Part shown: one piece after another, positions 20,890 through 29,642 of the stretch
How the letters are laid out: every line of letters begins with the position of its first letter
Numbering within the stretch: the stretch's first letter is position 1
Assembly (NCBI RefSeq): GCF_965641715.1
Contig: NZ_OZ282455.1
Length of the DNA: 64,000 nucleotides
Source of the DNA: Escherichia coli
GTDB taxonomy: Bacteria > Pseudomonadota > Gammaproteobacteria > Enterobacterales > Enterobacteriaceae
Reading direction: 5' to 3' (one strand)
Made by a program: the position numbers and the translations under genes
Notes under the pieces: generated by a model
Told to the model about the DNA's origin: nothing
Database searches by the model: none
What the model saw: only the letters and a program-made list of their open reading frames with translations

Positions 20890-22023
20890 ATGCATTTTTA
20901 TGTGGATGAAACCGGTCATACCGGTCCCAATCTTTTTGACCGTACCCAGCCTGTGCTTTCCTACGGTGTGCTTTCCTCACCGGATGACCTGGACAAGGTT
21001 GCCGAAGCCGATCTTGCTGCCTTGCGTAAGAAACTGGGAGTGCAGCGCCTGCACGCCGCAGAGCTTGGCATGCACCGCCTTGATGAGGTGGTTGATACGC
21101 TGCTTGTCCTGCAAAAGAAGCACCGGATACGGTTTGATGTCTGGCAGGTCGTTAAACGGGATCACGCCATTATTTCGTTCTTCGATCAGGTGTTCGATCA
21201 GGGGATGAATCCTGCAGTGCCCAGGGTTGCCTACTGGACCCCCTTTCGTTACCCGCTGCTACTGAATCTGGCAAGCCTGTTCGATAATGAGCTGGCTGAA
21301 AAAGCGTGGCGTGCCCGCCTCGAAGCCCATGATGGAAGGTCCTCATCTCTGTTCAGTGAGGTCTGCAGTGAGCTGCTTGCGCGCGCTCATACCCTGGGGG
21401 ACCGCCGTTACATTGAATTGATTACCGATGCGTTGTCCTGGGCGATGACCCACTTTGACGAACTGGGATATAACTGCAAAACCGGTAAACAAAAGCTGCA
21501 GATCATGCCCAATATGGTTGGATTTCAGTTCGTATTGCGCGGTATCTGTTCCCGCCTGGGAGCACCAAATCGCAAAGCCGACATCGTTGTGGACCAGCAG
21601 TCACAGTTCAACACCACCCAGCGGGAGCTGAGGGAGTTCTATTACCAGATACGTGAGATGCCGTGGGCACACGGTCCCGGTTTACCGGTCATGGATGTGA
21701 CGAACATGCCGGCTGAACCGCTGGTCTTCCAGTCGGGTACAAAAAGTGCAGGGCTGGAGCTGGTTGATATATATCTCTGGATCTTCAAACGCTTTATGGA
21801 AGGGAAGGAGTTAACCAGACCCCTTACCCGCCTGGTTTACACCAATCGCAATACCGGCAGGACGGACAGTGTCTCCCTTCAGTCGGTGGCTAAACGATCT
21901 AAGGAGTTTCTTGACAAACTGCAGGAGCCAACGGCAGAAATGATGAAAAAGGCGAGGGAATACCGGGATCAGGAAGAGGTAAGGCGGCTGGAACATCGGG
22001 TGCAAATCCTGCCGCCATCCTGA
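20890..22023 (+). CDS. DUF3800-like protein
   Basis: N-terminus MHFYVDETGHTG matches the Y(I/V)DE(S/T)G signature of DUF3800; RBS AAGGA upstream; six-frame ORF extends artificially to 20782. Confidence 0.45.
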   Translation: MHFYVDETGHTGPNLFDRTQPVLSYGVLSSPDDLDKVAEADLAALRKKLGVQRLHAAELGMHRLDEVVDTLLVLQKKHRIRFDVWQVVKRDHAIISFFDQVFDQGMNPAVPRVAYWTPFRYPLLLNLASLFDNELAEKAWRARLEAHDGRSSSLFSEVCSELLARAHTLGDRRYIELITDALSWAMTHFDELGYNCKTGKQKLQIMPNMVGFQFVLRGICSRLGAPNRKADIVVDQQSQFNTTQRELREFYYQIREMPWAHGPGLPVMDVTNMPAEPLVFQSGTKSAGLELVDIYLWIFKRFMEGKELTRPLTRLVYTNRNTGRTDSVSLQSVAKRSKEFLDKLQEPTAEMMKKAREYRDQEEVRRLEHRVQILPPS

Positions 22024-22181
22024 TCCGGCAGGTTGAGTACACACAAAAGTGGAAGCGGCCGCGACGGGATGATGCGTCTGTCCGGCATCTTCCGGAGGGC
22101 CAGAGCTCGAAATTCTGGCCGTACTTCACTTCTTCGTTGAAGCTCTATCTGTTCGCTGTGAGTCTCATATTTTTATTAAAA

Positions 22182-22922
22182 CTAAAGCAACTCATCAACA
22201 TAAGTCATGATGGAACGAACCAGATTTATGGCAAAACGGGCATCGGCTTCATTCAGCAAAGTTTCAGTAGGATGGGCCATACTGTAATTGTTGCGCAGGT
22301 TATTGATTCCATGAAGTATTGCGGCAGAAGACTTCAACATTTTAAACACATCTTCATTTCTTCCATCATCCGGCAGAGCCTTAAGATGTGCAGTTATCAG
22401 GGAAAGCAATCCTGGTACATTGTTATTTGTACTATTGGTCGCAATTCCATGGTTTGCGCACATTTGTCTTAATGAAGCATGAAGAGCAGTATGGACACGA
22501 TCATAAGCCCGGTGTGGGCCATTTTTCTGAAGCAACACTTCCGCATCTTCTAAGGCCTGGTAAATATTTTCATTCACATTTTTCACTGGCGCTGCAGAAA
22601 CGTTTCTTTGTCCATTCTGATTAACAATGTCCTTTATTTCATTGAATAAATCATTATCGGTATTGCTGATATAGCGTTGAACATTATCCAGCGCCCAGAT
22701 TTTAGAAAGGTTATCAGCATCCCTGGCCAGGGTAGTTTCTATGGCAGCGATGGCCACCCCTTTCAGTTGATCGTTACCCCATTCAACATGCCTGTAGAAT
22801 TGATTCAGCCCCGCAGGAACGTCTTCACAATCGGTAACAGCAAAAAGCTCCCTCCAGTCACCGCTGTTAAATTTTAATGCCAGAACTTTGGCCAATTTTA
22901 TTTGAGAAACTTTATCCAACAT
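22182..22922 (-). CDS. HEPN / Abi_C-like protein (AbiJ-like candidate)
   Basis: C-terminal ...ILHGINNLRNNYSMAHP... fits HEPN R-x(4-6)-H motif in Abi_C-like context; last gene of a 4-gene operon. Confidence 0.45.
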   Translation of the reverse strand: MLDKVSQIKLAKVLALKFNSGDWRELFAVTDCEDVPAGLNQFYRHVEWGNDQLKGVAIAAIETTLARDADNLSKIWALDNVQRYISNTDNDLFNEIKDIVNQNGQRNVSAAPVKNVNENIYQALEDAEVLLQKNGPHRAYDRVHTALHASLRQMCANHGIATNSTNNNVPGLLSLITAHLKALPDDGRNEDVFKMLKSSAAILHGINNLRNNYSMAHPTETLLNEADARFAINLVRSIMTYVDELL

Positions 22923-22957
22923 ACTGGTCCCTAATAGTTTGTACTTCTCAGTTGAGA

Positions 22958-23746
22958 TTACCGGAACGGAGTCTCAGTAAATGAAATCCGTGTACTGGTA
23001 TACCCCCTGCTCTGCAACAGGAATGAAATCCCGTCCATCATCATTGCTCTGTTACTGCGGGGACCAATTCTGATGTTTGTCAGTGGCAGCTTGTCTTTTG
23101 CTTTAATGATCAGATATGGCACCAGACCGTTATCATTGACACGAAAATTGACACCCTCATAAGGGCTGTCCGGGAGGATTACCATCCGGAACTCCTGCTC
23201 CTCTTTGAAACCGTCATTCTTGAAAAAAGGCGGCAGGCTGTGTGCCAGTCTGGTTGCCTGAATCATCTCATGCATTACATCTGCATTTATTGCCGCCTGA
23301 ACCTGTGGCTGACGAAAGAAGGCGAGGATTTCGTTCCGGGCTTCAACCGTGGAATCCTCTTTGGTATAGAGTACCCGGTTTTTAAACACCTGATATTGAG
23401 TTAATTCCAGGGAGGCAAGCAGCTCTTCATCATCAAATTCCAGGCACACGCCCTGAGAGCTGCCATAACCCCGCCACTGGCTTAACAGGTCGGGTTCGAG
23501 ACAGAACGACACGTTATAGACATGAGCAGCCCGGTGCATTCTGAAGTGCGTCAGTGCCTGTTCGATGAACTTCAGGGTTTTCGGGTTAAAGTCGTCCCTC
23601 AGGTACTGCAGGGCATTCTCAAGGCAGTTCATTCCGTGAGTCAGCTCATTGCTGTCATTGAGGAAGGAAAAGTGCGTCGCCCACAGTGAGCCTGATTCGA
23701 TGATGCCCTTCAGTCCGTTCAGGTCAGTGTAATGATAAATCTTCAT
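22958..23746 (-). CDS. DUF2971-like protein
   Basis: N-terminus MKIYHYTDLNGLKGIIESGSLWATHFSFLNDSNE matches DUF2971 signature (HYT ... LW ... LND..E); ATG overlaps upstream stop (ATGA). Confidence 0.5.
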   Translation of the reverse strand: MKIYHYTDLNGLKGIIESGSLWATHFSFLNDSNELTHGMNCLENALQYLRDDFNPKTLKFIEQALTHFRMHRAAHVYNVSFCLEPDLLSQWRGYGSSQGVCLEFDDEELLASLELTQYQVFKNRVLYTKEDSTVEARNEILAFFRQPQVQAAINADVMHEMIQATRLAHSLPPFFKNDGFKEEQEFRMVILPDSPYEGVNFRVNDNGLVPYLIIKAKDKLPLTNIRIGPRSNRAMMMDGISFLLQSRGYTSTRISFTETPFR

Positions 23747-24363
23747 CTGGCAGCCTCCTGACTGTCCGGGCCCTGTTCGCACTCAGTTTTCTGCATGTCA
23801 GACAGAAACGGGAACGCCTTAAAAGCGGCTTCCCTTGCTTCTTCTATGGACTGTTCCCAGGCCTGCCAATCCGGATCTGCCGCCAGCGTTTCCTCCGCGG
23901 TATCGCGTAACCAGGCATACAGCGTATCGCCACCATCGAGATCAACCTGGCGGGTTTTTACAGGGCCTTCATGCTTCATGATATTGCGTAACAGCTTACC
24001 AAGCTGCCCGTCAGACTCGACAGGTTCGGCAGGAATGTAGTCCGGATATTCGTCGAACTGGTCCAGCGTCAGATCGGTGTACTCCCCGTCCAGCAATACG
24101 ATGACATGCGCGTGAACCGTTGAGTTTTCCGCTTCATGAAAGTCTGCGTTCCCCTGCATAAAAATGATGCAGGGATGGCATCCCTCAGTATCCATCAAAT
24201 ACTGCGCCAGTGTGTTGCTGGCCAGGTCGCAGCTGCCGTGCGGGAAATTCCTGTGTTCCGTTTCCCAGCGAGGAAACCGACGGCACTCGTCAGCCCGCTC
24301 ACCGGCGGCAAGCTCCAGCGCCCGTCGAAAGGCTTTTATACGTAATAGTCTTTCCGGTCTCAT
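23743..24363 (-). CDS. hypothetical protein (acidic C-terminus)
   Basis: 206 aa; start overlaps kfrA-like stop (ATGA) and stop overlaps DUF2971-like start. Confidence 0.4.
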   Translation of the reverse strand: MRPERLLRIKAFRRALELAAGERADECRRFPRWETEHRNFPHGSCDLASNTLAQYLMDTEGCHPCIIFMQGNADFHEAENSTVHAHVIVLLDGEYTDLTLDQFDEYPDYIPAEPVESDGQLGKLLRNIMKHEGPVKTRQVDLDGGDTLYAWLRDTAEETLAADPDWQAWEQSIEEAREAAFKAFPFLSDMQKTECEQGPDSQEAAR

Positions 24364-24971
24364 TTCTTCACCTTCCCGTCCTGGCGGGCCAGGGCCAGCA
24401 GTTCTGCCTGAAGCTGACGGCCGTCCTCCCGGGACTCCTTCAGCTCCGCCTTCGTGTCCTGCAGCTGTGCCGCCAGGTGTTCGCCGGTGGCGGTCAGGCG
24501 GGCCACCTGCTCGCGCAGCGGCAGCGCCTCCGCGCGCAGATCGCGCACCTCCTGCAGCAGGCGGTCACGCTCGGCCACCACCTCGCGCAGCACCGCCAGC
24601 TCGCTTTCCAGGGTGGCCACGCTCGCCAGCGCCTCATCCCGTTCCTGGTCGGCCTGTTCAATGTCCGCGTCGGCCTGCTCGCGCGCCGCCAGGGTCCCGG
24701 CTTCAGCCTGCCTGACGGCCGCCTGCCACAGCAGCCCCAGCTGGCCGGTCAGGAGCTCTGCCAGCTCCGGCGGCAGGGGCGTGGTCTGCTCAGAGGCCTG
24801 CTCGCGCCGTCGGGCGCGGAACGCGCGCATTACCGGGGAGATATGCGACAGGGAGCCGCCGCCGAGGTGCTGGCGCACCTGCTCGTTGGTCGGGTTCAGG
24901 GTGCCGGCGGCGATCAGGGCGGCAGCGGCGTCTTCAATGCGGCGGACGGTGTCCGGGGAGAGGGTGGTCAT
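24360..24971 (-). CDS. KfrA-like coiled-coil DNA-binding protein
   Basis: N-terminal ...TVRRIEDAAAALIAAGTLNPTNEQVRQHLGGGSLSHISPVMRAF... resembles KfrA N-domain, followed by long Ala/Glu/Leu-rich coiled coil. Confidence 0.5.
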   Translation of the reverse strand: MTTLSPDTVRRIEDAAAALIAAGTLNPTNEQVRQHLGGGSLSHISPVMRAFRARRREQASEQTTPLPPELAELLTGQLGLLWQAAVRQAEAGTLAAREQADADIEQADQERDEALASVATLESELAVLREVVAERDRLLQEVRDLRAEALPLREQVARLTATGEHLAAQLQDTKAELKESREDGRQLQAELLALARQDGKVKK

Positions 24972-24974
24972 GGT

Positions 24975-25110
24975 CTGGCTCCGTTTTTACAGGGAATGAC
25001 GTCATCGTACGCCCGGTGTAAAAAATACACAATACACAAAATACAGTTAATACATACAATACAATAAATACATATCGTACATACAATACAGTATGTACAT
25101 ACACGCCTTC
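24975..25110. promoter_or_regulatory. promoter region with reiterated ATACA/TACAA motifs upstream of kfrA-like operon
   Basis: ...aatacacaatacacaaaatacagttaatacatacaatacaataaatacatatcgtacatacaatacagtatgtacatacac... Confidence 0.35.
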
Positions 25111-25512
25111 CCTTTTCCCGTTCAGATCCGAAAACTCCAGGTTCCGGATCCGCGGATCCTTCGCTGCCGCCCGCTGGTCCGCTTTCACAGGATGTGGTGT
25201 CCCGCTCCGCTGACATGACACTGTATGTTGTGTTTCTTCCCGTGTTCCCGAGCCAGTCATCAGCGGCAGAAAAGATCGCTTCGCTTATTCACTGATCCTG
25301 ATTCACTTCCGGAAAGTTGTAAATACGCAGTAAATCGGATCATCTGAAAACCACTGTTCGATAATTTAATGGAGTGGTTATATGCCTGATTATTATTTCA
25401 ATATGTGAAATTCATTTTTGTGAAAGTCACTTTCTCAACAGAGTAGCACTCATCTGGCGATGATTGAGGTGTGGTAAAATTGCACGGCTAACTATTCAAC
25501 TGAGGAAATGAC

Positions 25513-25863
25513 ATGTTTACTGCATTCAATGAGAGAAATGATTTCAGTTATGCTTTTGAAAAAATTCGCAATGCGATTTCCGCGCCAGGAGAAAATAATG
25601 TTTATGCTGCCACAGAATTAGGTCTTGGCATTCTGCTCCGTAAATACGAGCAGTTTCGCCGGGAGCTGGATGTGGCCGGTGAGCTGGGAAACTGGGAATA
25701 CGATCTCGATACCTACAATCACTGTATTGCGGTGCTGCAACGTTACTTCACTGGCAATCCATCCGGACTGACAGAACGTGACGCCCGGATTTACAGTCAG
25801 TACCTGCAGACTGAGCACAAAGGGTTTGTGAAGCTGGCTGAAGAACTGGCGGCTGACCGCTGA
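25513..25863 (+). CDS. hypothetical protein
   Basis: 116-aa ORF; forms pair with downstream 202-aa ORF. Confidence 0.35.
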   Translation: MFTAFNERNDFSYAFEKIRNAISAPGENNVYAATELGLGILLRKYEQFRRELDVAGELGNWEYDLDTYNHCIAVLQRYFTGNPSGLTERDARIYSQYLQTEHKGFVKLAEELAADR

Positions 25864-25932
25864 ATACATACAGTAGGCGGGATTTCCGGATAAGGTACCG
25901 AACCGGGGCTGTTAAAAGATTCTGGAGTTGAA

Positions 25933-26541
25933 ATGAAAAAGGGAAAAACGTTAGAACCGGGGCTGCTGGCCAGCGACAGCGACTGGCACAATAATGCCTG
26001 CCTGAATTACATGCCGGATCATGGTACAGCTTACACCGAAGGTTACAGGCGAGCTGCTGATATTCTGATTAACCACATTGATGAATCCGGGCGGGACCAG
26101 GATTTTCTGGTTTATCCGGTGTTGTTTCTCTACCGACATCACTTGGAGCTCCTTATCAAACAAATTATCGGACTGGCCCTTGCACTGGCAGAAGACCCGG
26201 ATAAACACCAGTACAAAAAAGATGACCATAACCTGAATAATCTATGGCCGCTGGCACAAAAGCTGATCCTGGAAGTTGATGACAGCTACCGGCCTTCCGA
26301 TTTTAAAATCGTCAAAGAGGTGGTTAAAGCTCTTCACCAAGCGGATGAACGGGCGACAGATTTCCGATATGCCAGGAGAAATGACGGCACCCGGAGCCTT
26401 GAAGGAATTCATTACGTCAACACCCGCCGCTTTGGGGAAAAAATGGGAGAGGCTTCCGATTTACTTGACGGGGTCGACAATGGCCTCCGGTACCTGCTGG
26501 ACTGTAAAGCCGAATGGAATCAAATTCTGGACAGCTTCTGA
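25933..26541 (+). CDS. hypothetical protein
   Basis: 202-aa ORF; no domain recognised. Confidence 0.35.
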   Translation: MKKGKTLEPGLLASDSDWHNNACLNYMPDHGTAYTEGYRRAADILINHIDESGRDQDFLVYPVLFLYRHHLELLIKQIIGLALALAEDPDKHQYKKDDHNLNNLWPLAQKLILEVDDSYRPSDFKIVKEVVKALHQADERATDFRYARRNDGTRSLEGIHYVNTRRFGEKMGEASDLLDGVDNGLRYLLDCKAEWNQILDSF

Positions 26542-26608
26542 CAGCCAGAAACGGCGCGAAAAATCCATCAGACTTACCTGAACAACTAATGATACTGAGA
26601 TACCGATC

Positions 26609-27391
26609 ATGACTGGCCTCATACCTTCAGCTACTTCTCAGGGCCCAATGGCCGCCCTGCCAGTGACCATCGACTATCCCGCAGCACTGGCCTTGCGGCA
26701 GATGGCGCTCGTTCAGGACGAACTACCGAAATACCTGCTGGCGCCGGAAGTGAGCGCCCTGCTCCACTATGTGCCCGATCTGCACCGTAAGATGCTGCTG
26801 GCCACCCTCTGGAATACGGGCGCCCGCATTAACGAGGCGCTGGCGCTTACTCGAGGGGATTTTTCGCTGGCACCGCCATATCCGTTCGTACAGCTGGCCA
26901 CGCTGAAGCAACGTGCCGAGAAGGCTGCCAGAACAGCAGGACGTCTGCCCGCCGGCAGTCAGGCCCATCGTCTGGTTCCGCTATCAGACAGCCAGTACGT
27001 GAACCAGTTGGAAATGATGGTGGCCACGCTGAAGATTCCGCTCGAGCGACGTAATAAGCGTACCGGCAGAACCGAAAAGGCGCGTATCTGGGAGGTCACT
27101 GACCGGACGGTACGGACCTGGCTGAATGAAGCAGTGGAGAATGCGGCCGCTGACGGGGTGTCATTCTCTGTGCCGGTTACCCCACATACTTTCCGCCATT
27201 CCTACGCGATGCATATGCTGTATGCTGGTATTCCGCTGAAGGTGCTGCAGAGCCTGATGGGGCACAAGTCGATTAGTTCGACAGAGGTGTACACGAAGGT
27301 GTTTGCGCTCGATGTGGCAGCAAGGCACAGGGTGCAGTTTTCGATGCCTGAGTCCGATGCTGTCACAATGCTGAAAAACAGACACGCATAA
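26609..27391 (+). CDS. tyrosine site-specific recombinase (ResD/XerD-like multimer resolvase)
   Basis: C-terminal catalytic region ...HTFRHSYAMHMLYAGIPLKVLQSLMGHKSISSTEVYT... with conserved R, H-x-x-R and Y. Confidence 0.75.
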   Translation: MTGLIPSATSQGPMAALPVTIDYPAALALRQMALVQDELPKYLLAPEVSALLHYVPDLHRKMLLATLWNTGARINEALALTRGDFSLAPPYPFVQLATLKQRAEKAARTAGRLPAGSQAHRLVPLSDSQYVNQLEMMVATLKIPLERRNKRTGRTEKARIWEVTDRTVRTWLNEAVENAAADGVSFSVPVTPHTFRHSYAMHMLYAGIPLKVLQSLMGHKSISSTEVYTKVFALDVAARHRVQFSMPESDAVTMLKNRHA

Positions 27392-27528: not shown

Positions 27529-27804
27529 TTACGTTAGTGTTTTTAAGTATTGCTCAAGGGCTACTCTGACGATGGCACTTACATTTTTTGGATCTTTACC
27601 ATTGCGTTTATTCCTCAATGCCAGATCTTCTATTGTGACAAGCATGCTTTCACCAAGAGAGATTGTCGTCCGACATTGTTTTTCTGGTTCGGGTTTTTCC
27701 GGCGCGCCGTATGGTTTATCCGCAAGGCGCTGAGCCAGAGCCTCTGCTTGTTCTACCGTAACTGCAGCTCTGTTTAATGCTTGCTGGCTGGGTTTCTTCA
27801 CCAT
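27529..27804 (-). CDS. ParG-like small partition/centromere-binding protein (RHH candidate)
   Basis: 91 aa, overlaps 3' end of ParA-family ATPase gene; C-terminal ...VSAIVRVALEQYLKTL. Confidence 0.45.
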   Translation of the reverse strand: MVKKPSQQALNRAAVTVEQAEALAQRLADKPYGAPEKPEPEKQCRTTISLGESMLVTIEDLALRNKRNGKDPKNVSAIVRVALEQYLKTLT

Positions 27805-28442
27805 GGGCCAAATACCTCATTCATTAAATGTTCAATTTCTGCTCTGGCTGCTGTATTGTTCGTTTCTACTACACCGGTGCCGTTGCTCATGCAATCGCGA
27901 TAGACTTTTCTGAAACAAATAACTGAATCCAGGACTTGAATTGTTGGGAATTCTTCAAGATATTCAAGGAATTCTTTTCTCTCATTTCCCCTCAAAACCG
28001 GATTGGTTGTTGCCATACTTTGTAAACAATAAACCTTAAGTTCCGGGTTAAGGTTACGCATTGCGTCTATCTGTTGTTCTAGTTCTGTAAGAGTATCCAG
28101 ATCTGGTTGAGAACACTGTAGTGGCGCAATTATTTGATGTGCGACAACTCCACTCGTTATGAATTCCTTTGAGTTTCTTCCTGCGACATCCACTATTACA
28201 TCATCGAACTTTTCATTCAGAGCCTGTAGTGTTTGTGTCAGGTTATCAAATTTCTCAACAAGGGTTATTGCTGGTAACAGTCCTGCAGCTTCTCGTTCCG
28301 CATGATGTTTTGCGGCTGTTCGTTGTAGATCTCCGTTTAACAGGCAGACTTCCCTTCCTTTATTTGCGAGAGCAATAGCCAGGTTTGATGCAATGGTAGT
28401 TTTCCCTGAACCACCTTTGTTCCCACCAACTACAGTAATCAT
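27798..28442 (-). CDS. ParA/ParF-family partition ATPase (small type Ib)
   Basis: Deviant Walker A MITVVGGNKGGSGKTT; ~214 aa from internal Met. Confidence 0.75.
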   Translation of the reverse strand: MITVVGGNKGGSGKTTIASNLAIALANKGREVCLLNGDLQRTAAKHHAEREAAGLLPAITLVEKFDNLTQTLQALNEKFDDVIVDVAGRNSKEFITSGVVAHQIIAPLQCSQPDLDTLTELEQQIDAMRNLNPELKVYCLQSMATTNPVLRGNERKEFLEYLEEFPTIQVLDSVICFRKVYRDCMSNGTGVVETNNTAARAEIEHLMNEVFGPW

Positions 28443-28670
28443 TGCAACCTCATAAATGTGATGTGTGAAGTATGATGATATTTTGACACGGTAACCTGAT
28501 GTGTCAACATGCATTCATATTTATGAAGTATGAAATATGAAGTGTGTCATGTGATGTAATAAATATTACTTGTGTTTTGTGATTTCATAACTATGATAGT
28601 GCTCAAATTGAGTATTACCTTGCAACCAGAAACAGTGATTTACTCAGATTGAGTATTTAAGGGGCTATAG
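28443..28670. promoter_or_regulatory. divergent par promoter / candidate centromere repeats
   Basis: AT-rich, reiterated TGTGAT and ATGAAGT motifs; GTGATTTCATAA occurs here (28589-28600) and at 27508-27519. Confidence 0.4.
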
Positions 28671-29642
28671 ATGAACGTATACTGCGATGATGGTTCAACA
28701 ACAATCAAGTTGGCATGGAATGACAATGGGAAAATCTGTAAGTCGTTGTCGCAAAACTCATTTCGTCATGGATGGAAGGTTGACGGGTTAGGGATTCGCC
28801 AGACATTTAACTATGAACTGGATGGTAAAAAATACACGTATGATGAAGTTAGCAACCAATCTATTCTTACGACTCATATTGAGTATCAATATACGGATGT
28901 TAACCTGTTAGCTGTGCATCACGCTTTACTGAATAGTGGATTAGCGCCTCAGCCTGTATCATTGACTGTGACTTTGCCTATCAGTGAGTTCTACACGAAA
29001 GAGTGTCAAAAAAATGAACTCAACATTCAGCGTAAAATTGAGAATTTAATGAGGCCGATTCGTCTTAATAAAGGCGATGTTTTCACCATTGAACACGTTG
29101 ATGTGATGCCTGAATCATTGCCAGCTGTGTTTTCTCGTCTGGTCATGGATAAAGTTGGTCAGTTCGAAAAATCGCTGGTAGTTGATATTGGCGGCACTAC
29201 GCTTGATGTTGGTGTTATCGTTGGTCAATTTGACTCTGTAAGTGCCATTCATGGTAATTCTGGCATTGGTGTGTCTTCAGTTACGAAAGCTGCAATGAGT
29301 GCATTGCGCATGGCATCCAGTGATACCAGTTTCCTCGTTGCAGATGAATTGATTAAACGTCGTAATGACCCGGACTTTGTTCGGCAGGTTATAAATGACG
29401 AAACAAAAACTGATCTGGTCCTTAATACCATTGAGGGGGCTATTGCCAGTCTGGGGGAGCAAGTAGTCAATGAGCTCGGTGATTTTCATCATGTGAATCG
29501 TGTTTATGTTGTCGGTGGTGGGGCCCCGTTGATCTATGATTCGATAAAAACGGCATGGCACCATCTTGGGCAAAAAGTAGTGATGATGGAGTCGCCACAG
29601 ACAGCACTGGTTGAAGCTATCGCGGCTTTCAAAGAGGAGTAA
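28671..29642 (+). CDS. parM: actin-like partition ATPase ParM/StbA
   Basis: MNVYCDDGSTTIKLAWNDNG...VDIGGTTLDVGV...VVGGGAPLIY aligns with R1 ParM (MLVFIDDGSTNIKL... IDLGGTTLDI ... VIGGGAELI). Confidence 0.85.
   Translation: MNVYCDDGSTTIKLAWNDNGKICKSLSQNSFRHGWKVDGLGIRQTFNYELDGKKYTYDEVSNQSILTTHIEYQYTDVNLLAVHHALLNSGLAPQPVSLTVTLPISEFYTKECQKNELNIQRKIENLMRPIRLNKGDVFTIEHVDVMPESLPAVFSRLVMDKVGQFEKSLVVDIGGTTLDVGVIVGQFDSVSAIHGNSGIGVSSVTKAAMSALRMASSDTSFLVADELIKRRNDPDFVRQVINDETKTDLVLNTIEGAIASLGEQVVNELGDFHHVNRVYVVGGGAPLIYDSIKTAWHHLGQKVVMMESPQTALVEAIAAFKEE

What the first reader, a model, noticed from the sequence alone, without database searches (positions are those of the whole stretch)
24975..25110. Reiterated ATACA/TACAA motifs in the promoter of the KfrA-like operon
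About 100 bp immediately upstream of the kfrA-like start are composed largely of imperfect ATACA-type repeats (atacacaatacacaaaatacag ... tacatacaatacaataaatacata ... tacatacaatacagtatgtacatacac). KfrA proteins autoregulate by binding repeats in their own promoter, so these are candidate operator sites.
Basis: partly seen in the sequence, partly recalled or inferred. Interest (0 to 1): 0.3.

Follow-up and report, generated by a model that had tools for sequence, protein, structure and literature searches.

The report
Repeated operator of plasmid KfrA repressor
A run of about nine 9-bp TGTAT-type repeats upstream of a plasmid kfrA-like gene is almost certainly where the KfrA protein binds to switch off its own promoter, because it carries the same 9-bp motif as the experimentally defined operator of plasmid RA3, so this is an ordinary new member of a known regulatory design.

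Summary
Window 25023-25104 holds 12 [A/G]TACA motifs, all on the + strand, and 8 of them sit in one 9-bp register. No other part of the 64-kb window has more than 3 per 90 bp, and none of 5000 shuffles matches it.

The gene reading away from the repeats (24971-24360, minus strand) is a true KfrA_N protein. Its helix-turn-helix is nearly identical to that of KfrA from the IncU plasmid RA3.

The published RA3 operator O_K consists of five 9-nt repeats, TGTATTGTA, overlapping the kfrA promoter. That exact 9-mer occurs twice in this array, and the other units are degenerate copies (TGTAY + 4 nt).

Thirteen homologues (eight enterobacterial, four with the RA3-type helix, one more distant Vibrio) carry TGTAT-type units upstream of kfrA. 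A sister plasmid without kfrA has none.

In all eight enterobacterial loci the last two units form a -35-like hexamer (TTGTGT), followed 16-17 nt later by a conserved -10-like TAnnnT.

Compared with RA3, the array is longer, runs in one direction only, varies in copy number, and abuts an rfsF-like recombination site.

Verdict: a new member of a known kind, of modest interest.

The parts
25023..25104 (-). Array of about nine 9-bp units. On the sense strand they read TGTAY + 4 nt: TGTATGTAC ATACTGTAT TGTATGTAC GATATGTAT TTATTGTAT TGTATGTAT TAACTGTAT TTTGTGTAT TG-TGTAT. Proposed KfrA operator of the O_K type.
   Evidence: The exact RA3 unit TGTATTGTA occurs at 25090-25082 and 25063-25055 and nowhere else in the window.
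25027..25032 (-). Candidate -35 hexamer TTGTGT, formed by the junction of the last two repeat units (TGTATTGTGTAT).
   Evidence: PWM scan. The same hexamer, T(T/C)GT(G/A)T, sits at the same aligned position in all 8 enterobacterial homologues. Position inferred; no transcription start data.
25004..25009 (-). Candidate -10 hexamer TACGAT, 17 nt downstream of the -35.
   Evidence: In alignment A2 this position reads TACGAT, TACACT, TAAAAT or TAAGGT; TA...T is kept in all 8 intact homologues while the flanks vary. It lies 38 nt from the ATG, against 36 nt for the RA3-type -10 TAAAAT in pMBUI7.
25022..25050 (-). Alternative promoter: -35 TTAACT (25050-25045), 17-nt spacer, -10 TATTTT (25027-25022), lying entirely within the array.
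   Evidence: Best-scoring sense-strand candidate in the window, but its -35 is poorly conserved in the homologues. Kept as an alternative.
24979..24982 (-). Shine-Dalgarno GGAG, 7 nt before the ATG.
   Evidence: Read from the sequence; conserved as GGAG in most homologues.
24360..24971 (-). kfrA-like gene, 203 aa. N-terminal HTH (helices 6-21, 29-36, 41-62) followed by one long alpha-helix (68-201).
   Evidence: Pfam PF11740, E 1.2e-21. BLASTP against IncU KfrA, E 1e-30. AlphaFold model with pLDDT 91.
23743..24363 (-). Second gene of the operon, 206 aa, no family match. Its start overlaps the kfrA stop by 4 nt.
   Evidence: Conserved downstream of kfrA in pO157 (84%) and in a Citrobacter plasmid (44%).
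25124..25151 (.). Neighbouring rfsF-like hairpin (AGATCCG...CGGATC). It is not part of the operator and marks the distal boundary of the kfrA cassette.
   Evidence: It is the only segment shared with the pifC-ccdA intergenic region of plasmid F. Homology breaks here in both directions.

Best explanation
The array at 25023-25104 is the operator of the KfrA-like protein encoded immediately downstream on the minus strand. KfrA dimers, each with an N-terminal helix-turn-helix and a long coiled-coil tail, would bind cooperatively to neighbouring 9-bp TGTAT(T)nnn units. The promoter-proximal units form the -35 hexamer of the kfrA promoter, so occupancy excludes RNA polymerase and the kfrA-orf206 operon represses itself. 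By analogy with RA3, the multi-unit KfrA-DNA complex may also contribute to stable plasmid inheritance. Shown here: the repeats, their 9-bp phase, their identity to the RA3 operator unit, the near-identity of the DNA-reading helix, and the co-occurrence of array and gene across lineages. Inferred: binding, the promoter position, repression, and any role in maintenance.
For: 1. The array is far beyond chance and strictly phased at 9 bp. The 9-bp period holds across 8 homologous loci: 35% of pairwise TGTAY distances are 0 mod 9, against 11% expected, and periods 7, 8, 10 and 11 show no such enrichment.
2. The RA3 operator O_K is five 9-nt TGTATTGTA repeats overlapping -35 and -10. EMSA and xylE reporters showed that at least 2 adjacent units are needed for binding and 4 for full repression, and that four units all in one orientation bind almost as well (PMC7783346). 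RA3 and pMBUI7 show exactly that sequence upstream of kfrA. The same 9-mer occurs twice in the window's array and nowhere else in 64 kb.
3. The residues reported as essential or DNA-facing in RA3 KfrA (N29, V32, R33, G39, S40, L41, S42, I44, S45, P46, M48, R49, R52) are all identical at the same positions in the window's protein.
4. Co-occurrence: TGTAT-type units are found upstream of kfrA in 8 enterobacterial plasmids of different backbones (IncFIA/FIB pO157, IncFII and untyped replicons) and in RA3, Vibrio and Halomonas plasmids with the same recognition helix. More distant KfrA_N genes have related TTGTA-type iterated or inverted motifs.
5. An IncI-gamma/K1 sister plasmid has the same adjacent rfsF-resD region but no kfrA, and it has no such units.
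6. A conserved -35 (formed by the last two units), a 16-17 nt spacer and a TAnnnT -10 are present in all 8 loci.
7. The array differs from that of pO157 by exactly 27 bp, i.e. 3 units, so the array changes length by whole units.
Against: There is no binding, footprint or transcription-start evidence for this plasmid or any enterobacterial homologue. W51, described as totally conserved and essential in RA3 KfrA, is F51 here. Only 2 of about 9 units match the RA3 9-mer exactly; the rest share only TGTAY. The array is unidirectional and lies mostly upstream of the likely -35, whereas in RA3 the units straddle the -10, so most units are not needed for simple promoter occlusion. Both promoter candidates score modestly: the consensus scan found none on this strand and the PWM scores are 8-9 bits.
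Confidence: 0.78

Rival explanations
1. The array is bound by KfrA, but its main role is architectural. It would serve as a loading or scaffold site for a KfrA filament that aids plasmid positioning or partition, acting like a centromere accessory, and autoregulation would be secondary.
For: In RA3, KfrA-O_K binding is required for stable maintenance, and KfrA interacts with the partition proteins IncC and KorB. The window's array has about twice as many units as full repression needs in RA3, and most of them lie upstream of the -35. Two partition systems, one ParA-type and one ParM-type, lie 3-4 kb away.
Against: No interaction data exist for this protein. Its tail (about 135 aa) is much shorter than RA3's. 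pO157 manages with a shorter array. This reading is compatible with the main explanation rather than exclusive of it.
Confidence: 0.15
2. The repeats are accessory sequences of the adjacent rfsF-like multimer-resolution site. They would be bound by the ResD-like recombinase, or by KfrA acting as an architectural cofactor for resolution.
For: In all 8 enterobacterial loci the array begins 19-21 bp from the conserved rfsF-like hairpin. The hairpin is a homology breakpoint. A ResD-like tyrosine recombinase is encoded 1.5 kb away.
Against: Plasmid F and the IncI-gamma/K1 plasmid L012 have the hairpin and resD but no repeats. RA3, Vibrio and Halomonas plasmids have the repeats with kfrA but no such hairpin upstream. 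The adjacency is also expected if kfrA cassettes are simply exchanged at rfsF.
Confidence: 0.05
3. The array is AT-rich, slippage-prone simple sequence with no specific ligand. It might act only as an UP-element, as curved DNA, as an H-NS target, or as a remnant of origin iterons.
For: The array is 24% GC next to a 72% GC gene. Copy number varies between plasmids. In plasmid F an AT-rich origin region (oriV1) lies beside rfsF (location of oriV1 from my own knowledge).
Against: The TGTAY core and the 9-bp phase are conserved while the spacer bases drift. The motif equals an experimentally defined operator unit. The motif co-varies with presence of the gene.
Confidence: 0.02

Closest known systems
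O_K operator of KfrA on the IncU plasmid RA3 (Lewicka et al. 2021, PMC7783346)
   Same: The 9-nt unit is the same (TGTATTGTA, exact twice). The 9-bp head-to-tail spacing is the same. The -35 hexamer is embedded in the units. The HTH residues of the cognate protein are the same. The -10 lies a similar distance from the ATG (about 36-38 nt).
   Different: RA3 has 5 units, 3 direct and 2 inverted, flanking the -10. The window has about 9 units, all in one orientation, mostly degenerate (TGTAY + 4 variable nt), extending about 75 bp upstream of the -35. The protein is 203 aa rather than about 350 aa, lacks the 35-aa tail repeats, and has F51 in place of W51. There are no kfrC, korA, incC or korB neighbours.
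Iterated operators of KfrA from R751 (IncP-1 beta) and pPOP15.9
   Same: An iterated short motif lies in the protein's own promoter, and the protein has an alpha-helical tail. The IncP-1 plasmid pLME1 shows TGTTGTA repeats upstream of kfrA.
   Different: The unit and its arrangement differ: a 7-mer, 2 direct plus 2 inverted. The recognition helix also differs (SFTTISEAM). IncP kfrA is additionally controlled by KorA and KorB.
KfrA of RK2 (IncP-1 alpha)
   Same: An autorepressor from the same Pfam family.
   Different: According to PMC7783346, its operator is a single imperfect 24-nt palindrome, not an array.
TubR-tubC type repeat arrays
   Same: An HTH protein would bind a run of short direct repeats to form a superstructure. 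The RA3 authors modelled KfrA dimers on TubR.
   Different: This is an analogy only. No homology was tested here, and no tubulin-like or other motor partner is evident.

Membership tests
KfrA-type plasmid proteins (Pfam KfrA_N) | N-terminal KfrA_N DNA-binding domain | tested here: met
   PF11740: E 1.2e-21, 78 bits against a cut-off of 26.1, residues 10-125.
KfrA-type plasmid proteins (Pfam KfrA_N) | Globular HTH head followed by a long alpha-helical tail | tested here: met
   The AlphaFold model has helices 6-21, 29-36 and 41-62, then a single helix 68-201, with mean pLDDT 91. Weak SMC/Rad50 coiled-coil hits.
KfrA-type plasmid proteins (Pfam KfrA_N) | Sequence-specific DNA binding and autorepression | not testable with these tools
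   Requires EMSA and a reporter assay.
RA3-type KfrA / O_K operator system | HTH (N29-R52) residues shown to be essential in RA3 | tested here: met
   N29, V32, R33, G37-39, S40, L41, S42, I44, S45, P46, M48, R49 and R52 are identical. The only exception is W51, which is F51 here.
RA3-type KfrA / O_K operator system | At least 2-4 adjacent 9-nt TGTATTGTA-type units in the kfrA promoter | tested here: met
   About 9 phased units, 2 of them exact, with the -35 embedded in the last two.
RA3-type KfrA / O_K operator system | Units in both orientations flanking the -10 | tested here: not met
   All units have one orientation. Only a single TACA half-site follows the array (TGTATTTTTTACA). RA3 data show that orientation is not critical for binding.
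RA3-type KfrA / O_K operator system | Genomic context kfrC-kfrA-korA-incC-korB and a tail of 35-aa repeats | tested here: not met
   Here the context is rfsF-like site / kfrA / orf206 / defence-like genes. Beyond about residue 160 there is no similarity to the IncU tail.
rfsF / ResD resolution site accessory sequence | Repeats present wherever the rfsF-like core and resD occur | tested here: not met
   Absent in F and in the IncI-gamma/K1 plasmid CP082504.

The most novel reading that the evidence does not exclude
In enterobacterial plasmids the kfrA array is always placed 19-21 bp from an rfsF-like crossover site. This might be because a KfrA filament assembled on the long unidirectional array works together with the ResD/rfsF system. 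It could act as an architectural filter for multimer resolution, or as a gate on the rfsF-mediated exchange of variable regions. On this reading the array would be a dual-purpose element rather than a plain operator.
Probability: 0.07. Interest if true: 0.6.

Novelty: new member of a known kind. Interest (0 to 1): 0.3.

Why it matters
The RA3 authors called the RA3 operator 'unique'. These results indicate that the same 9-bp code is reused, in longer and copy-number-variable arrays, by KfrA-like genes on several hundred clinically relevant plasmids in the collection searched, most of them enterobacterial (571 records with a tblastn match; examples include pO157, IncI-gamma/K1 and IncFII plasmids). 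That gives a ready, testable operator for an uncharacterised backbone gene of these plasmids. It also provides a natural series of arrays of different length (about 6-12 TGTAY motifs) for studying cooperative binding by KfrA. No new principle is revealed.

Tried and rejected
- **Simple sigma-70 consensus scan.** It found no promoter on the kfrA strand, only a + strand match (TACACA-16-TACAAT) inside the array. TACAAT is the reverse complement of part of the unit, so -10-like hexamers on the antisense strand follow automatically from the repeat. I did not interpret this as a divergent promoter.
- **An Frpo/ssi-type single-strand promoter or a structured RNA in the conserved stretch 25105-25382.** The DNA fold z-score was only -1.85 and there was no Rfam hit at E<=1. 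Rejected.
- **Co-variation between the variant recognition helix SLATIS (L006-L008) and CGTA-containing units.** Group B has 9 CGTAY among 37 units and group A has 2 among 59. This is suggestive, but it rests on three related loci, so I make no claim.
- **Other clusters of the motif in the window.** None were found.
- **Literature on KfrA operators in IncI, IncK or IncF plasmids.** Searches found nothing.
- **RA3 under accession DQ401103.** It was not in the collection; RA3 was later retrieved as NC_010919.
- **Identity of orf206.** No Pfam or NCBIfam family matched.

Full report
**What is there.** The window is part of an enterobacterial IncI-gamma/K1-type plasmid. It is 99.9% identical over 1.2 kb to E. 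coli plasmid NZ_CP122641.

The gene next to the finding lies on the minus strand (24971-24360, 203 aa). It matches Pfam KfrA_N with E 1.2e-21. Its stop overlaps by 4 nt the start of a 206-aa ORF with no family match (23743-24363).

On the sense strand, the sequence upstream of the ATG reads as follows: an SD (GGAG), a 51-bp non-repetitive leader, and then the array at 25023-25104.

**Checking the observation.** The quoted strings are present.
- Twelve [A/G]TACA pentamers lie in 25025-25103, all on the + strand (TGTAY on the kfrA sense strand). Eight share one 9-bp register.
- The window average is 0.145 per 90 bp, and the next-best 90-bp stretch has 3.
- None of 5000 dinucleotide-preserving shuffles of the 82-bp region reaches 12 motifs or 8 in phase.
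- Tandem Repeats Finder and the repeat finder report periods of 9, 18 and 27.
- The array is 24% GC, next to a gene of 72% GC.

The gene is on the minus strand. The array lies 52-133 bp from the ATG, not immediately upstream.

**What it is.** The key comparison is with KfrA of the IncU plasmid RA3. PMC7783346 reports that the RA3 operator O_K consists of five 9-nt repeats (TGTATTGTA), three direct and two inverted, overlapping the -35 (TTGTAT) and -10 (TAAAAT) of kfrAp. In that work:
- at least two adjacent units were needed for binding or repression, and four for full repression;
- four units in a single orientation bound almost as well;
- the HTH mapped to N29-R52, with N29, V32, R33, S40, L41, I44, P46, M48, W51 and R52 essential.

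I retrieved RA3 itself (NC_010919) and pMBUI7 (KC170284). Both show exactly that operator upstream of kfrA.

The window's protein is 41% identical to the IncU protein over 164 aa (E 1e-30). Across the HTH it is identical at every residue listed above except W51, which is F51 here.

The exact RA3 9-mer occurs twice in the array (25090-25082 and 25063-25055) and nowhere else in the 64 kb. The other units keep TGTAY plus four variable bases. An AlphaFold model (pLDDT 91) gives a three-helix head followed by a single 134-residue helix, which is the KfrA architecture.

**Comparative test.**
- Eight enterobacterial homologues on different backbones all carry TGTAY arrays at the same place. They are pO157 (IncFIA/FIB), a Salmonella IncFII plasmid, plasmids from Serratia (two), Leclercia, Citrobacter and Klebsiella, and an Enterobacter pseudogene copy.
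- Across the seven intact homologues together with the window's own array, 35% of all pairwise TGTAY distances are 0 mod 9, against 11% expected. Periods 7, 8, 10 and 11 show no such enrichment.
- Copy number varies: 6-12 TGTAY motifs per array. The window and pO157 differ by exactly 27 bp, which is three units.
- Plasmids from Vibrio and Halomonas with the same recognition helix have short, palindromically arranged TGTAT/ATACA units like those of RA3.
- More distant KfrA_N genes (IncP-1 pLME1, pCT14, and Vibrio and Methylocaldum plasmids) carry related TTGTA-type iterated or inverted motifs. This agrees with the literature statement that R751 and pPOP15.9 KfrA recognise iterated motifs whereas RK2 KfrA recognises a 24-nt palindrome.
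- As a negative control, an IncI-gamma/K1 sister plasmid (CP082504) shares the adjacent conserved region and ccdAB-resD but has another gene in place of kfrA. It has no such motifs.

The array therefore follows kfrA and not the neighbouring system.

**How it most likely works.** In the alignment of the eight loci, the most conserved part of the array is its proximal end, TGTATTGTGTAT. This contains a -35-like TTGTGT (window 25032-25027). It is followed after 16-17 nt by a hexamer that keeps TA...T in every intact locus while its flanks vary (window TACGAT, 25009-25004). That -10 lies 38 nt from the ATG, against 36 nt for the RA3-type -10 in pMBUI7.

An alternative promoter (TTAACT-17-TATTTT) lies wholly inside the array, scores similarly in the window, and is less conserved.

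With either promoter, KfrA bound to the proximal units would occlude RNA polymerase. I therefore propose cooperative binding of KfrA dimers to adjacent 9-bp units and autorepression of kfrA-orf206.

The distal units exceed what repression needs in RA3. They may increase cooperativity or build a larger KfrA-DNA complex with a role in maintenance, as RA3 data suggest. Binding, the promoter position and repression are all inferences for this plasmid.

**Rivals.**
- A mainly architectural or partition role is compatible with the data and cannot be separated from the main explanation here.
- An accessory role for the adjacent rfsF-like site is made unlikely by F and CP082504, which have the hairpin but no repeats, and by RA3-type plasmids, which have the repeats but no hairpin.
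- Non-specific AT-rich sequence is excluded by conservation of the core and phase while the spacers drift.

**Surroundings.** The stretch 25109-25382 is conserved in more than 4600 plasmids regardless of kfrA. Its hairpin (25124-25151, AGATCCG...CGGATC) is the only part shared with the pifC-ccdA intergenic region of plasmid F. Homology breaks at this hairpin on both sides, and a ResD-like tyrosine recombinase gene lies downstream of it. This fits the rfsF site that the literature describes as an exchange point in IncI1 and IncR plasmids. I did not see the canonical rfsF sequence, so the identification is by position and behaviour only.

**Novelty and score.** Iterated KfrA operators are known, and the RA3 unit is the same as the one here. 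I found no paper describing the operator of the enterobacterial KfrA-like genes. The differences from RA3 are the array's length, its single orientation, its copy-number variation, F51, and its adjacency to rfsF; these are variations on the known design. I rate it a new member of a known kind, with interest about 0.3.

Noticed in passing
window 25109-25382 (hairpin 25124-25151): A non-coding stretch conserved in more than 4600 plasmids independently of kfrA. Its GATCCG...CGGATC hairpin matches the pifC-ccdA intergenic region of plasmid F and is the homology breakpoint in both directions. It is probably the rfsF-type site of the downstream ResD-like recombinase operon.
   Followed up: partly
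window 24360-24971 against 25023-25104: There is an extreme composition contrast. kfrA is 72% GC, its operator 24% GC, orf206 55% and the window 52%, which suggests that the kfrA coding sequence came from a high-GC source.
   Followed up: no
window 20782-23782: Downstream of the kfrA operon lies a cluster of defence-like genes: DUF3800, an Abi_C/AbiJ-N-terminal-like protein and a DUF2971 protein. It sits in the variable region bounded by the rfsF-like site.
   Followed up: no
L006, L007, L008 (kfrA homologues from Salmonella, Citrobacter and Serratia): These three have a variant recognition helix (SLATIS instead of SLSHIS), and their arrays contain more CGTAY units (9 of 37, against 2 of 59 in the other group). 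This may be protein-operator co-variation, but the loci are related to one another.
   Followed up: partly
window 24984-24991 and 25017-25024: A perfect 8-nt inverted repeat (TTTTTACA / TGTAAAAA) brackets the candidate -10 and the leader. Each arm contains a TGTA/TACA half-site, which recalls the inverted units of RA3.
   Followed up: no
window 25513-27391: In the position where F, pO157 and CP082504 carry ccdAB upstream of resD, this plasmid has two unrelated ORFs (116 and 202 aa, no family match).
   Followed up: no
window 27529-29642: Two partition-type modules sit side by side: a ParA/MipZ-like ATPase with a 91-aa partner, and divergently a ParM-like protein with a stability protein.
   Followed up: no
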